From positions 1-45,950 of the forward strand of contig JANNWY010000144.1 in NCBI GenBank assembly GCA_031409335.1: 45,950 nucleotides of DNA. Reading direction: 5' to 3'. The position numbers were made by a program. Shown in pieces: positions 12,001 to 18,000 of this stretch (position 1 is its first letter; every line of letters begins with the position of its first letter). Origin of the DNA: Chthoniobacteraceae bacterium. GTDB taxonomy: Bacteria > Verrucomicrobiota > Verrucomicrobiia > Chthoniobacterales > Chthoniobacteraceae.

Positions 12001-15000
12001 CATATTTCACGGGCCGGTATCCCGGTTTCGATTTGGAAGATCCCGATTGGCCTCCGTTGCGCGAACACATTGCGCAGGTGCAAGCGCTGCTTGCAAAAGT
12101 GAAAGCGCGGATCGTTTAGCGCGCGAATGACCCTCGTCATCGCTTCCATCGCGCTGCTCGCGTATCTGCTCGGCTCGATTCCGTTCGGGCTTTTGGTGGG
12201 AAAGTCACAGGGCATCGACGTGCGCGAGCATGGCAGCAAGAACATCGGCGCGACGAATGTGTGGCGGGTGATGGGGAAAAAATTCGGGCTGATTACTTTC
12301 GCGTGCGATTTGGGAAAAGGCTGGCTCGCGGTCGCGCTCGGGCAGTGGATCGCGGCGCATTGGGCGGTCCGCGTTGAGTTGCCGCACATGCACGAGCGGA
12401 TCGATTTTTTCGATCCCGGTTATGCCGGAATCACCGCGGCGATCGGCTGCATTCTCGGGCATAATTTTCCCGTGTGGCTGCGCTTCAAAGGCGGCAAGGG
12501 TGTGGCGACTTCGCTTGGCGTGATCTTCGGCATGATGCCGCTCGCGGCGCTCATCGTATTCGCGATTTGGGGCGTGGTTTTCAGACTCTCGCGCTACGTG
12601 TCGCTCGCATCGCTGGTGGCCGCGGTGGCGCTTCCGGTCACAGTCATCGGGCTCATGTTCGCCGGGCAGATTCGCGGCTGGGCATACTTTTACTTCGCGT
12701 GCGCGGCGGCCATTCTGGTCGTGCGACGGCACCGCGAAAACATCCGCCGGCTCGTCGCGGGCACTGAAAATCGCTTCGGCAAACCCACCACCACAAAATG
12801 AATTTCACACACATCGGCATCGTCGGCGCGGGCGGCTGGGGAACGGCGCTGGCGCTCGTGCTCGGTGAAAGCGGCGTGCCGGTGACGCTGTGGGGCCACG
12901 ACGCGCGGGAGATCGCGGCCATCGCGGCGAAGCGTGAAAACGTGATCTATCTTCCCGGCGTCGCGCTGCCGGAATCGTTTCAATACACGGGCGAACTCGC
13001 GGACCTCGCCGCGTGCGATCTGCTCGTCCTCGCCACGCCGTCGAAGGCCACGCGCGAAGTTTCCGCGCGTCTCGCCGCGACCGCATTGCGCGACGACGCG
13101 GTGCTTCTGACCTGCACGAAAGGCGTCGAGCGCGGCACGGGATTGCGCATGAGCCAGCTCGTCGCGGAAGCATTTCCCAAGCACGCGATCGCCGCGCTTT
13201 CCGGTCCGAGCCATGCCGAGGAAGTCGCGCGCCGCGCGCCGACCGCGGTGGTGATTGGCGCCACGGATGCGTCCGTTGCGCAGCGGCTCCAGCGCGTGTT
13301 CACCACGCCCGCATTTCGCACTTACACCAATGAAGACGTGGCCGGCGTCGAACTCGGCGGCGCGCTGAAAAACATCTTCGCCCTCGCCGCGGGCGTGAGC
13401 GACGGCCTCGGCCTCGGCGACAATACGAAGGCCGCGCTCGTCACCCGCGCGCTCGCCGAGATGACGCGCCTCGGCAGCGCGCTCGGTGGCAAGCGCGAAA
13501 CCTTTCAGGGGCTCAGCGGCATTGGCGATCTCATCGTCACGTGCTTTTCAAAACACAGCCGCAATCGCGGCGTCGGCGAACGGCTCGGCCGCGGTGAATC
13601 GCTCGGCGACATCTCAGGGACGATGCGGATGGTGGCCGAAGGCGTGCCGACGACTTACAGCGCACAAGAGTGCGCCCGCGCGCACGGTATCGAAACGCCG
13701 ATCATCGACCAGATGCGTGCGCTGCTCGACGGCGCGACTTCACCGCGCGACGCGCTCACCGCCCTGCTCTCCCGCGATCCGCGGCCCGAATAATTACGGC
13801 GTGACGACGCGGTAGAAAAACTGCCCCGCCGGGCCGGCCACCGTCGTGCTCGTCGTCCCATCGCCCGCGGAGGGCACATTTTTCAAAAACGTGAACGGTC
13901 CACCCGGCGCAGATGCGGTGAAGATGCGATAGTTGAGGCCCACTTTGCTCTGCCACGTCAGCGAGTAGCTCCCGGGCGCGATTGGCTGGAATGCTGTGAC
14001 GCGCAGCACCGATTGCGGCACGCGCGGATCGGTGTGCGCGATGAATTCGTGAAGGTTGTCGAGCCCATCCCCGTCGGTATCGAGGCCGGAGTCGGACACG
14101 TTTTTTTTCAGACCATAGAAAGCTTCCCAGCCATCGGGAATTCCGTCGCCGTCGCCGTCCAGCTTCCCGAGATAATCCGGCGCGCGGACGCCACGATTGG
14201 ACGTGCCGGTGTTGGTGATGACGCTCCAATTTGCGAAGAATTCCGACACCGCGTCGCCGGCGGGATTGAGCTGGATGTAGCTCCACTCGACCGCGCCAGT
14301 GGCAAAAGAAATCCGTTCCGAAACGTCCGCGCCACTCGCCGCGTTGAAGGTCTGTTTGGTGAAGTAACACGTCGTTGCTTTGAGGTCCCAAAGCTCGATC
14401 CGATTCGGACTGCGCAGCGCGACCACCATCTTGATCGTCGCCAGCGGAGCGCCTTGCGCGAGCCTCTGAAAGAACAGCGGCGTCGCGGCATCCACTTTTT
14501 TCACGATCGAAAATTCAGAGAACTTCAATTTCCCGACACCGGCACCGCCAGAGGTGCTCCCGATCGTTACGGGCGTTTCAGCGCCGGCCTCGAATGACGA
14601 TGCCTCGATCCATCCCGAGTAAATCGGATCGACCGATCCGCCAGCGATCACAGGTCCGCTTGACGGTGTCACTTCGAGAAAGACATCGAAAGCCGCATCG
14701 GCCCGCGACGTGAGCAGGACGAGGCAAAGAAGGAAAGCAGCGCGCATGGCGATCTGCGGATTAATTGACTTCGAAAGTGGCGTTGTTGAGCACCTGACTC
14801 CACGACCGAATCACCGGAGTTTGTGGAACTCCACCCACGATCGGGACGGTCGTGATGCGCTGCGCTCCACAGAGCATCTTGATGTTCTCGCGGACCGTGT
14901 CGTCACCAACAGTCGTCGTGCTCGCGGTGCTGACGAAAAATACCAGCCTGAGTTCCACTCGGAAAAACACCGTCGGAGTTCCGCCGACCGGCCTCACGAA

Positions 15001-18000
15001 TTCGATCGTCAGATCTCCGTTCGTCTGCCCGCCCAAATTCTGTCCCGATGCCAAAAATGAGAAGATTTGCGGCGTGAGCCGATCCACCACTTTCGAGATG
15101 GCGATGGGATCAAACGCCAACTTTCCCACGCCAGCACCACCGGAGGCGGAGCCGATCGTCACCGGCGTGGACGCGCCCAGCGAAATCGAATCCAACTCCG
15201 CCCATCCGGCACGACCCGCGGCGGTCGATTCTCCGTTCCACGGCGACAAGCCATTCAGGAATTTTGCGTAAATGGTGACCTGCGCCATGGAGCGCGAGGC
15301 ACCGACAGTGAGCGCGACTGCGAGGACGAGCAGCGCGGCGATTCGGCGAAATGCAAAGGTGAATTTTGTATTCATGGCAATATGAAGAACGCTCCGGCGG
15401 TTTTAGTTTTCTCCACCCGCCGCGTCAATCCCAAGATGCTGCCTCGGTCTCCCGCGATTGCCCGCAGATCTTGGCTAAGTCGGCATCGCCGAGCCAATGC
15501 TGACTTCGCCCGCGGACAACGTCGCGAGCGTGCCGTCGCTTTGGCGGAGCAGGAGCTGGCCGCTGGCGTCGAGGTTTTCAGCGACGCCTTCGATGACGGA
15601 GTCCGCCGCGCGCACTTGCACCCAGCGCCCGAGCAGCACACTGCGGCGCGAGGCTTCGGCGACGAGTTGATCGAAGCGGCGCTCGAGATCGGCGTATCGC
15701 GCGTCGAGTTCGCGCAGGATCGCGGCGGCCAGCGCGGCGCGGTCGATCGCACGATTCGTTGCGACCCGGAGCGACGTGGCGATGGCGGCGAGATTTTCGG
15801 GGAAATCTTCGCGCGCGTGATTCGCATTCAGGCCGATGCCGATGACGGCGAAATTTTCCTGCGCCTGATCCTGCGCCGTCTCGATGAGGACTCCCGCGAT
15901 CTTCCTGCCATCGACGAAGATATCGTTTGGCCATTTGATCCCCGCACTGACGCCCGTCGCGCGCTCGATGGCCGACGCGATCGAGACGGCCGCCCAAGTC
16001 GTGAGTCGCGGCCAGTGTTCCTGCGGAAACGTCGGACGCAGCAGCAGCGAAAACCACAGCCCGAGATGCGACGCGGATTCCCAGCGGCGACCAAAGCGCC
16101 CGCGTCCCGCATTTTGTTTCTCCGCGAAAATGGCGAGTCCGCTCGCCGCGCCGCTCCTGCCCAGCTTCGCGGCCCGGTCATTCGTCGAGTCGGTTTCCTC
16201 GAAAACGACAATCTCGCGAACCAGCGCGCAATTTCCCAAACGCGAATCCAGGTCCGCTGCGATCAGCCGATCCGGCGCTCCAGTGAGTCGATAGCCCAGT
16301 CCCGGACGTTCATCGAACTCGAAACCCGCCTCGCGCAATTCATCCACGAGCGCCGCGACTCCCGCGCGCGTTGAGCCGATTTGCGCGGCGAGTTCCGTGG
16401 GCGGCGTGTGAATCGTCGAGCCACGCAGCGCCCGCAGCAGCGCGGCATCCAGCGATTTCACGGGAGCAGCTCCAGCGAAAAATCCATCGACCGCGCCGAG
16501 TGCGTGAGCGCGCCGGATGAAATGAAATCCACGCCCGTCGCCGCGATGCCCGCGACGGATTCCAGCGTCACCCCGCCGCTCGCCTCAAACTGCACGCGCC
16601 CCTTCCCGAGCCGCACCGCGGTCGCCATCTGTTTCAGCGGCATGTTGTCGAGCAGGATGACATCCACGCCGCTCAATTTCAGAAACGCCGCGACCTGCTC
16701 CAGCGTGTCCGCTTCCAGCTCGACGCGGATGCCGGGATGTTTTTTGCGAAAGCGCGAAATCAAGTCCTGGAGCTGATCCGCGCTCCCCGCCGCGAGCAGA
16801 TGATTATCCTTCACCATCACCATGTCATAGAGCCCGAAGCGGTGATTCACCCCGCCGCCCGCCATCACCGCCGCCTTTTCCAGCGCCCGCAGCCCCGGCG
16901 TCGTCTTGCGCGTATCGAGGATGCGCGCCTTGCGTTTGCCCACTGCTTTCACGAACTGCGCCGTGAGCGTCGCGATCCCGGAAAGATGCTGGAGAAAATT
17001 CAGCGCCACGCGTTCCGCCGTGAGGACCGAGCACACCGCGCCCTCGATCTCGATCACCGTGTCGCCCTTCTTCACACGGCTCCCGTTGTTCGCGATCACC
17101 TTCGCGCGCGTCTTCGGATCGACGCGCCCGAACACTTCCGCCGCCGTGTCCACTCCGGCGACGACGGCCTCCTCCTTCGCGAAAATGCGTGCGCGCCGCA
17201 GCTCCGTGCCAGTGAAGTATCGCGACGTGAGATCCCCCGAACCGATGTCCTCCGCGAGTGCGATGGCGATCGGATCGTGCTGCGTCGGGCGCGCCGGATC
17301 GGGCAGGGCTTTCATCCTAAAAACGCGGGAACAGGATGTTGGTTCACGAACGTGTTGTTAGAGGTCCACGCCCGGCAATGTCACGCGCGAACACACGCTG
17401 CGCCCCGGTAAAAGCACCTCGGGACCGATGGAATGCACGCTCCGGCACGCTCGAAAGCCGCACGCGTGTCGAATAGTTGCACATGGAGCCCGAGATCAAT
17501 GTCTCTCGCTCGACCAATTTCGCGACAGGGAAAGCAATAGCCTGCGAAGATACTGTCCTGACACTACTGCCTTGCGTCGATTCCGCCGTGAGCCCGCCTG
17601 GCCACGGCGCGTTCGGTGTAGGATGAGGGACTACAGAAGAAACGTCCTTATGCTGCTATCCAGTCCCCTGGCGAAAATGATATGCCTCACTTATTCGGTC
17701 GGTCTTCACTGCCAGCCACCGCAGATAATCCTCCACGCTTTATGAAATTCCGCTTCCTTCTCACCGCCACTGCCTTTGCACTCGCGATCACCCACTCCCA
17801 AGCCGCCATCATCTCCGCGACCGGCGCGACGACAAACATGGGCTCGGGTTTTGGCACCCTTTTAAGCAACACCATCAATGGCGTGGGCCTGAGTTCGCTG
17901 AACCTTGCGGCGACACACGCCGCCACCCTTCCGGGTAACTCCTGGGTCTCGGCGGGAGGCATCCTGACGGGCAACATTACCTTCGGGCTCGGCGGGCTCC

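What a model noticed while it worked through the whole genome (the two positions that open the first line are those of the whole stretch)
13794..15375. Signal-peptide-bearing Hcp pair in a genome without T6SS
Two tandem Hcp (T6SS tube) homologues carry Sec-type signal peptides, unlike canonical cytoplasmic Hcp, and one ends in a TSP3 linker plus the C-terminal tag shared by exported proteins. The genome has no other T6SS gene, so the Hcp fold has been repurposed as a Sec-exported protein.
Evidence so far: Pfam T6SS_HCP on both; no VipB or other T6SS families. The model matches Hcp1 structures at E 1e-11, with helix 5-28 as the signal. All 15 homologues of g02583 begin with a hydrophobic signal ending in AxA/Q, with A31-Q32 at least 90% conserved. 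Same tandem pair in G069 and signal-bearing single copies in G073 and G075, all without T6SS neighbours. Paper searches 58 and 210 found no such class.
(Added by a program. Inside this text positions count along the whole contig: contig position 1 is position 1 of the stretch shown here. "Call 12" and the like, gene names such as g00115 and contig names such as C1 are that model's own, and its searches are not shown. The text may have been shortened before it was handed on; [...] marks where a part breaks off. The agent that wrote the report below was given it as the finding of a first reader that could run no searches.)

Follow-up and report, generated by a model that had tools for sequence, protein, structure and literature searches.

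The report
Exported Hcp pair, tagged and untagged
A Verrucomicrobia bacterium with no detectable type VI secretion weapon carries two neighbouring genes for that weapon's ring-forming tube protein, both with export signals and one with a shared tail tag; the same two-gene layout recurs across the phylum, which suggests an undescribed ring assembled outside the cytoplasm.

Summary
Confirmed and extended. Both genes encode Hcp-fold proteins behind Sec-type signals whose inferred cleavage restores the normal Hcp N-terminus. The 98%-complete genome gave no match for T6SS sheath, baseplate, membrane-complex, spike or PAAR genes.

New here: the layout itself is a module. An untagged exported Hcp (A) is directly followed by an exported Hcp ending in the Verrucomicrobia C-terminal tag (B). 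I saw it in 11 genomes across the phylum, none with a VipB match. Its Hcp domains do not form one clade (AU p=0.002), so it was probably re-seeded from T6SS Hcp more than once. In 10 of 10 intact pairs, A is the more T6SS-like copy.

Among 150 listed distant relatives, 25 are single chains of exactly six Hcp domains, many with adhesin stalks, which points to a hexameric ring as the working unit.

Best reading (0.5): A and B form a mixed ring outside the cytoplasm, B addresses it to the surface, and it binds a ligand. Co-assembly, location and ligand are untested; the complex predictor was unavailable.

The scan already noted exported Hcp, the tag and six-Hcp chains on other DNA. Ten paper searches found no description; one paper only filters out PEP-CTERM-tagged Hcp genes.

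The parts
14761..15375 (-). hcpA: 204-aa exported Hcp, no tail
   Evidence: ORF; Pfam T6SS_HCP E 3.2e-13; model matches Hcp1
15283..15375 (-). HcpA Sec-type signal peptide, residues 1-31, cleavage inferred before Q32
   Evidence: signal-like in 16 of 16 family members; an in-frame Met next to the core only in this one; A31-Q32 at least 90% conserved; helix 5-28
14764..15282 (-). HcpA Hcp domain, residues 32-204, with full-length glycine-rich beta2-beta3 loop
13794..14747 (-). hcpB: 317-aa exported Hcp with TSP3-like linker and C-terminal tag; starts 13 bases after the hcpA stop
   Evidence: ORF; Pfam T6SS_HCP E 7.8e-13 and TSP3_bac
14694..14747 (-). HcpB Sec-type signal peptide, residues 1-18 (cleavage site inferred)
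   Evidence: 28 of 30 family members signal-like; model residue 19 aligns with residue 2 of solved Hcp
14202..14693 (-). HcpB Hcp domain, residues 19-182
   Evidence: Foldseek E 2e-14; VIA Z 20.6
14013..14174 (-). TSP3-like acidic linker, about residues 192-245 (calcium binding is inferred from the family name)
   Evidence: Pfam TSP3_bac 26.7 bits against cut-off 25; invariant acidic and glycine positions
13797..14012 (-). C-terminal all-beta tag domain, residues 246-317, ending in an aromatic-x-Arg-aliphatic motif
   Evidence: 170 frames of G000 end in it after three HMM rounds; 142 of 170 have the terminal motif against 60 of 1029 control frames; six strands in the model; nearest Atlas clusters are unnamed, commonest Verrucomicrobiota

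Best explanation
The two genes form one unit that builds an Hcp ring outside the cytoplasm.

1. Both chains cross the inner membrane by Sec, and signal peptidase leaves ordinary Hcp N-termini (strongly inferred from sequence, about 0.95).
2. They fold and close into a six-membered ring (inferred, about 0.85).
3. Untagged HcpA is the major subunit and tagged HcpB a minor one in the same ring (inferred, about 0.65).
4. HcpB's tail gives the ring the same address as the genome's other tagged exported proteins, most likely the cell surface, and HcpA rides along (inferred, about 0.6; the tag's role is itself unproven).
5. The ring works as a binding head: Hcp's habit of holding a protein in its 40-angstrom lumen is turned outward to catch or hold a ligand. 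It does not inject.

Shown: the genes, the fold match, the signal-like ends, the recurring layout, and no T6SS match. Not shown: export, ring, co-assembly, location, ligand.
For: Signals and T6SS status.

Module: A then tagged B in G000, G808 (L018), G055, G154, G771, G517, G735, G691, G708 and G725, and decayed in both genes in G009. All 11 lack a VipB match. In the phylum search, 8 of 401 genomes matched; of the 7 besides G000, 6 were such pairs and 1 an ordinary T6SS cluster. Flanking genes differ between genomes, so the pair travels alone.

Asymmetry: A is closer to a T6SS Hcp than B in 10 of 10 intact pairs. B's beta2-beta3 loop is shorter in 7 and equal in 3.

Ring: of the 150 listed representatives, 25 carry exactly six Hcp domains, 6 carry two, 2 three, none four, 4 five and 1 seven. 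Two of the fives are fragment repeats and two look truncated. Many carry Ig, cadherin, dockerin, RTX or PEP-CTERM parts.

Mixed Hcp rings that recognise cargo are known in Bacteroidales T6SS (PMC13213661, abstract seen; PDB 9vnd title).
Against: Eleven genomes have a single signal-bearing Hcp and no second Hcp gene beside it (G004, G011, G013, G015, G019, G081, G131, G280, G286, G318, G338); only G131's has a tail, PEP-CTERM-like by eye. A tagged Hcp partner is therefore not needed for every exported Hcp.

A and B are only 20-45% identical within pairs.

The six-domain chains sit nearer ordinary Hcp than this pair in a quick tree, their genomes could not be checked for T6SS, and summed scores favour multi-domain hits. 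In G000 itself the two loops are of equal length. The HcpA model lacks the canonical helix.

The signal rule is crude: it passes 311 of 1029 control long frames, against 96 of 157 tag carriers. Kin are not independent. No ligand, partner enzyme or transporter gene is conserved next to the pair.
Confidence: 0.5

Rival explanations
1. Sheath-free nanotube or pilus: HcpA rings stack into a hollow filament on the cell surface, and a HcpB-containing ring anchors, nucleates or caps it.
For: Major-then-anchor gene order in 11 genomes. A keeps a near-full beta2-beta3 loop (37-42 residues against 38-42 in T6SS Hcp), while B shortens it in 7 of 10 pairs. In A. baumannii Hcp the ring edge with this loop is the most conserved surface (PMC4469607, passages).
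Against: Native EAEC Hcp1 rings bind each other weakly (KD 7.2 uM) and form no tubes in vitro (PMC3925092, passages). Six-in-one chains with stalks suit a single ring. The HcpA family also trims the loop (median 38, range 35-41).
Confidence: 0.2
2. The two proteins are exported but act separately (homo-rings or monomers); they are neighbours only through tandem duplication followed by gain of the common tag.
For: A and B of one genome are sisters in G725 (100/97). The tag sits on about 170 proteins in G000, so it is easily gained. Single untagged copies exist in 10 genomes.
Against: The order A then tagged B is the same in all 11 pairs, though the pairs are not one clade. Both genes decayed together in G009. 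In the G000 lineage A and B are old, separately conserved clades (100/99 each).
Confidence: 0.15
3. Envelope defence: periplasmic or surface Hcp rings act as decoys that soak up Hcp-binding effectors or parts of incoming T6SS or phage tails.
For: Repeated derivation from T6SS Hcp (the G725 pair nests among T6SS Hcp, 99/97), and occurrence mostly in genomes without a VipB match. Effector binding in the lumen is Hcp's known second role (PMC13213661 abstract; PMC4469607 passage).
Against: No direct evidence. Divergence to about 30% identity from T6SS Hcp would erode effector mimicry. No immunity or defence neighbours were seen (PADLOC was not searched).
Confidence: 0.1
4. Cytoplasmic leftovers of a lost or unassembled T6SS, with mis-called starts.
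For: HcpA has an in-frame Met30 that would give a normal-looking Hcp start. The genome is in 326 contigs. An orphan sheath gene exists on C83. Two VipB-negative genomes (G224, G346) hold signal-less Hcp.
Against: That Met is present in 1 of 16 family members. The hydrophobic leader is kept in 44 of 46 sequences. Five other pair genomes lack the sheath family. HcpB ends in a tag found mostly on signal-bearing proteins.
Confidence: 0.03

Closest known systems
Hcp/TssD, T6SS inner-tube protein (PF05638, TIGR03344; PDB 1y12, 4w64, 3eaa)
   Same: Fold (Z 20.6), Pfam family above cut-off, glycine-rich loop, mature N-terminus in register
   Different: Signal peptide; no T6SS genes matched in the genome; below the TIGR03344 cut-off; about 30% identity to the nearest T6SS Hcp sampled; B has a sorting-type tail, not a toxin
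Bacteroidales minor Hcp heterohexamers (B. fragilis; PMC13213661 abstract, PDB 9vnd)
   Same: Neighbouring, divergent Hcp paralogues; a precedent for mixed rings that recognise cargo
   Different: Those are encoded in T6SS loci and serve T6SS secretion; here there is no T6SS and both chains have export signals. Mixing is untested here.
Specialised Hcp with C-terminal extension (Hcp-ET; PMC8262886 passages)
   Same: Hcp domain followed by more than 60 extra residues
   Different: The extension is a TSP3-like linker plus a tag shared by about 170 proteins of the genome, not a recognised toxin domain; a signal peptide is present
Hcp with PEP-CTERM sorting signal (mentioned only as a filter in PMC8262886 methods)
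   Same: Exported Hcp with a C-terminal sorting-type tail (P0163 has two Hcp domains and PEP-CTERM)
   Different: A different tag; a two-gene untagged-plus-tagged layout; no function is described for either
T9SS C-terminal domain (PF18962), as an analogy for the tag (recalled, and named in earlier scan notes)
   Same: Small terminal beta domain on many signal-bearing proteins
   Different: No Pfam or NCBIfam match to it; SprA search blank but without a working control

Membership tests
Hcp/TssD fold family | Pfam PF05638 above gathering score | tested here: met
   50.5 and 49.3 bits against 23.5
Hcp/TssD fold family | Two-sheet beta-barrel with flanking helix, matching solved Hcp | tested here: met
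   helix present in the HcpB model, not resolved in the HcpA model
Hcp/TssD fold family | Hexameric ring | not testable with these tools
   The complex predictor was unavailable; indirect support from six-domain chains
T6SS tube protein (functional TssD) | NCBIfam TIGR03344 above cut-off | tested here: not met
   20.0 and 18.5 bits against 58.9
T6SS tube protein (functional TssD) | No signal peptide; made in the cytoplasm | tested here: not met
   signal-like leader in 16 of 16 and 28 of 30 family members (crude rule)
T6SS tube protein (functional TssD) | Sheath, baseplate, VgrG, PAAR, membrane complex and ClpV genes in the genome | tested here: not met
   genome 97.98% complete. TssJ was not searched.
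Specialised Hcp (Hcp-ET effector) | C-terminal toxin domain | tested here: not met
   The tail is TSP3-like plus the shared tag
eCIS / tailocin / prophage tail tube | Tube gene clustered with sheath, baseplate and spike genes | tested here: not met
   Flanks are gpsA and birA; the sheath gene is alone on another contig; no VgrG hub match; no phage record matched HcpA. The gp19 search had no working control.
T9SS cargo | T9SS C-terminal domain and SprA translocon | tested here: inconclusive
   No family match for the tag; SprA blank, but the control did not ring
Tat or lipoprotein substrate | Conserved twin-arginine motif or lipobox cysteine | tested here: not met
   An RR-x-F/L pattern in 3 of 16 HcpA and 0 of 30 HcpB leaders; no lipobox flagged

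The most novel reading that the evidence does not exclude
Verrucomicrobiota have repeatedly turned the T6SS tube protein into a two-component, Sec-exported surface structure: a major untagged subunit that forms rings or a hollow, sheath-free tube, and a tagged minor subunit that carries it through an undescribed phylum-specific sorting pathway and anchors it. This would be a new kind of surface appendage and the first defined multi-subunit cargo of that pathway.
Probability: 0.25. Interest if true: 0.9.

Novelty: new variant of a known kind. Interest (0 to 1): 0.72.

Why it matters
Hcp is treated as the hallmark of type VI secretion and as a protein with no signal peptide, so these genes are annotated as T6SS parts in genomes where no T6SS is found (source names). 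A conserved exported version gives the fold a second, unknown job.

The pair also offers a small test case for the Verrucomicrobia C-terminal tag, found on about 170 proteins of this genome. If untagged A reaches the surface only with tagged B, the tag is a sorting signal that moves folded oligomers. Naturally exported and single-chain Hcp rings would also be useful scaffolds for protein engineering.

Tried and rejected

RNA runs: none was listed for this stretch; no reads were laid.

Metagenome locus scan with the HcpB alignment: the patterns fell on the TSP3-like motif and none of the 80 loci covered the Hcp domain from its start; not used. The genome scan with the HcpA alignment gave one locus, L018. 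Phage records and plasmid records, queried with a six-Hcp protein: no match. The cluster look-up of 10 multi-Hcp proteins gave no organism names. The Atlas search with a six-Hcp protein gave only leads under 0.9. The wide fold search did not test the tag domain, so its fold is unassigned here.

Promoter and terminator scan: nothing above chance. GC is 0.59-0.61 over the pair against 0.66-0.68 in the immediate flanks, but similar dips occur nearby; not taken as evidence of transfer.

Rejected:
- Met30 as the true start (1 of 16 sequences).
- The orphan sheath as partner (absent from 5 of 5 other pair genomes tested).
- One origin for all pairs: AU p 0.002 for A+B, 0.0001 for A, 0.0005 for B (long branches present). 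An earlier, smaller test without the six phylum-level pairs did not reject one clade for A, B and the G154 pair (p 0.44). It rejected one clade for all signal-bearing Hcp only while L180 was included (p 0.003, against 0.25 without it).

The quick 231-row tree had several automatic label errors and was used only as a guide.

Paper searches listed no paper on signal-bearing Hcp or on the tag. Passages were read in PMC8262886, PMC3482391, PMC2907700, 10.1101/2024.11.06.622250, PMC3925092 and PMC4469607, and the abstract of PMC13213661; the rest were seen as listings only. No supplements were opened; those of PMC8262886 or the Accumulibacter secretome paper could list such proteins. Subscription papers are not covered.
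Full report
What is there. Between gpsA (12798-13793, +) and birA (15475-16461, -) lie two minus-strand genes 13 bases apart. hcpA (14761-15375) encodes a leader and one Hcp domain. hcpB (13794-14747) encodes a leader, an Hcp domain, a TSP3-like acidic linker and a terminal beta domain. Both pass the Pfam Hcp cut-off and fail the NCBIfam T6SS tube cut-off. Models match solved Hcp structures; in the HcpB alignment, residue 19, the first after the inferred cleavage, pairs with residue 2 of EvpC. The HcpA model is weaker (mean pLDDT 76.7) and lacks the usual helix. Close homologues are labelled Chthoniobacteraceae, which places the genome in Verrucomicrobiota by inference.

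The leaders look like real signals. A crude rule passes 16 of 16 HcpA and 28 of 30 HcpB family leaders; one more HcpB sequence starts at the core. The leaders vary in sequence but keep length, charge and small residues at the end. HcpA has a Met just before the core that could mimic a cytoplasmic start, but the 15 homologues do not. No lipobox was flagged, and a twin-arginine-like pattern occurs in only 3 of 46. No trained predictor was run.

No T6SS was found. In the 97.98%-complete genome, family searches for VipB, VgrG hub, TssK, TssM, PAAR and TssL were blank with working controls. T6SS proteins from two related genomes found only ClpB. The only Hcp matches in the genome are these two. One phage-type sheath gene stands alone on contig C83; five other pair genomes lack it.

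Signal and T6SS nearly exclude each other. Of 401 genomes of the order, 67 match Hcp and 55 match VipB. Fifteen have Hcp without VipB. One (below cut-off, with a stop) was not examined; of the other 14, 12 have signal-bearing Hcp and 2 (G224, G346) do not. Fifty-two have both. In 48 I read at least one Hcp locus and none had a signal; 4 were not examined, nor were most extra copies. In the 61-genome sample, G019 has both kinds. These genomes are kin, so no statistic is given.

The pair is a module. The order 'untagged exported Hcp, then exported Hcp with the tag' was seen in 11 genomes: G000, G808, G055, G154, G771, G517, G735, G691, G708, G725 and G009, where A is truncated and B is frameshifted in its tail. 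A phylum search with the HcpA alignment matched 8 of 401 genomes at E 1e-9: G000, six pairs and one ordinary T6SS cluster; the query includes the signal and so favours such hits. All 11 lack a VipB match. B ranges from about 260 to 1300 residues, with Ig or cadherin spacers in some; in G771 the tag match is partial. Flanking genes differ, and in four relatives the DNA after gpsA is not the pair. Against a strict need for B, 11 other genomes have single signal-bearing Hcp genes.

It probably arose more than once. On a 47-row tree, one clade is rejected for all A (p 0.0001), all B (p 0.0005) and A plus B (p 0.002); the G725 pair nests among T6SS Hcp with 99/97 support. Two long rows were flagged, G009 was left out, and the root is arbitrary. 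Domain replacement within an old module would give the same picture. In every one of 10 intact pairs, A is closer to a T6SS Hcp than B, and B's beta2-beta3 loop is shorter in 7 and equal in 3. That fits a major subunit and a freer minor one.

The tag. A profile of B's tail, iterated three times on C-terminal ends, found 170 frames in G000 (some are likely false). Of these, 142 end in an aromatic-x-basic-aliphatic motif, against 60 of 1029 control frames. The signal rule passes 96 of 157 carriers not at contig ends, against 311 of 1029 controls. The nearest Atlas clusters are unnamed and mostly Verrucomicrobiota. Earlier scan notes describe the same domain. The genome has seven secretin matches, so a type II-like route exists, but nothing links it to the tag.

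Evidence for a ring. A profile search of 1.84 billion representatives gave 3106 hits; among the best 150, 111 have one Hcp domain, 6 two, 2 three, 4 five, 25 six, 1 seven and 1 none by my length filter. Two of the fives are short-fragment repeats and two look truncated. Of the 30 long ones scanned, many carry Ig, cadherin, dockerin, RTX or PEP-CTERM parts. Six is the Hcp ring number (PMC3925092, PMC4469607, passages), so exported Hcp relatives appear to keep the ring. These chains are not close kin of the pair, their genomes were not checked, and ranking favours repeats. An earlier scan note made the same point (e1-5614765); I met it after my own count.

How it most likely works. Sec export and cleavage (about 0.95), ring closure (0.85), mixed A/B ring (0.65), delivery to or retention at the surface through B's tag (0.6), and use of the ring as a binding head. 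Mixed Hcp rings that recognise cargo are known inside Bacteroidales T6SS (PMC13213661, abstract). Overall 0.5. Rivals: a stacked, sheath-free tube anchored by B (0.2; weakened by the poor stacking of free Hcp rings, PMC3925092), independent proteins (0.15), a decoy against incoming effectors (0.1), and a T6SS remnant (0.03). The complex predictor was unavailable, so co-assembly is open.

Comparison with what is known. These are members of the Hcp fold family but fail three defining features of a T6SS tube protein. Ten searches found no description of signal-bearing Hcp; Howard et al. 2021 only removed PEP-CTERM-bearing Hcp genes from a tree. The scan itself has noted exported Hcp at least seven times, the tag, and six-Hcp chains. 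A word search for the tagged-plus-untagged pair and a sequence search with HcpB returned nothing.

Verdict. Real, not an artefact, and not found described in the papers searched. A new variant of a known protein family with a likely new job; interest 0.72.

Noticed in passing
database proteins P0086, P0097, P0101, P0102, P0104, P0111, P0113, P0119, P0123 and others: Single chains of exactly six Hcp domains (25 of 150 listed), with Ig, cadherin, dockerin or RTX tails and planctomycete-type leaders: natural covalently linked Hcp rings. Two-domain forms with PEP-CTERM also occur (P0163).
   Followed up: partly
G000:C83:70099-71262 (L030:14100-15263, minus strand): Orphan phage-type tail sheath gene (PF04984, PF17482) with no tube or baseplate genes recognised among the minus-strand frames around it; absent from five other pair genomes.
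   Followed up: partly
G000 whole genome; also window 2827-4953 (minus strand, endonuclease I family): About 170 proteins end in the same uncatalogued C-terminal domain, including the endonuclease gene in this window.
   Followed up: partly
P0129, P0159: Proteins with seven or eight repeats of a 33-residue piece of Hcp (the loop and following strand), not whole domains.
   Followed up: no
L180:1841-3440 (G286): A signal-bearing Hcp of a different lineage directly follows a non-Hcp gene that ends in the TSP3-like linker and a tag-like end: perhaps another tagged-partner layout.
   Followed up: no
L177 (G224) and L181 (G346): Orphan signal-less Hcp genes in genomes of 96% and 93% completeness without a VipB match.
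   Followed up: partly
L023:9273-10543 (G009): Both genes of the pair are damaged (A lacks its front part, B is frameshifted in the tail): joint decay or assembly error.
   Followed up: partly
window 23113-35046 (+): Three large genes in a row: an FG-GAP repeat protein with DUF7453, an MbnP plus di-haem peroxidase fusion, and a 1934-aa galactose-oxidase-like protein with cytochrome c, PA14 and Ig domains; possibly a copper-radical oxidase maturation cluster.
   Followed up: no
window 11378-12119 (+): Two small adjacent genes that read like a nucleotidyltransferase and HEPN pair (judged by eye, not scanned), after a PolX/PHP-like gene.
   Followed up: no
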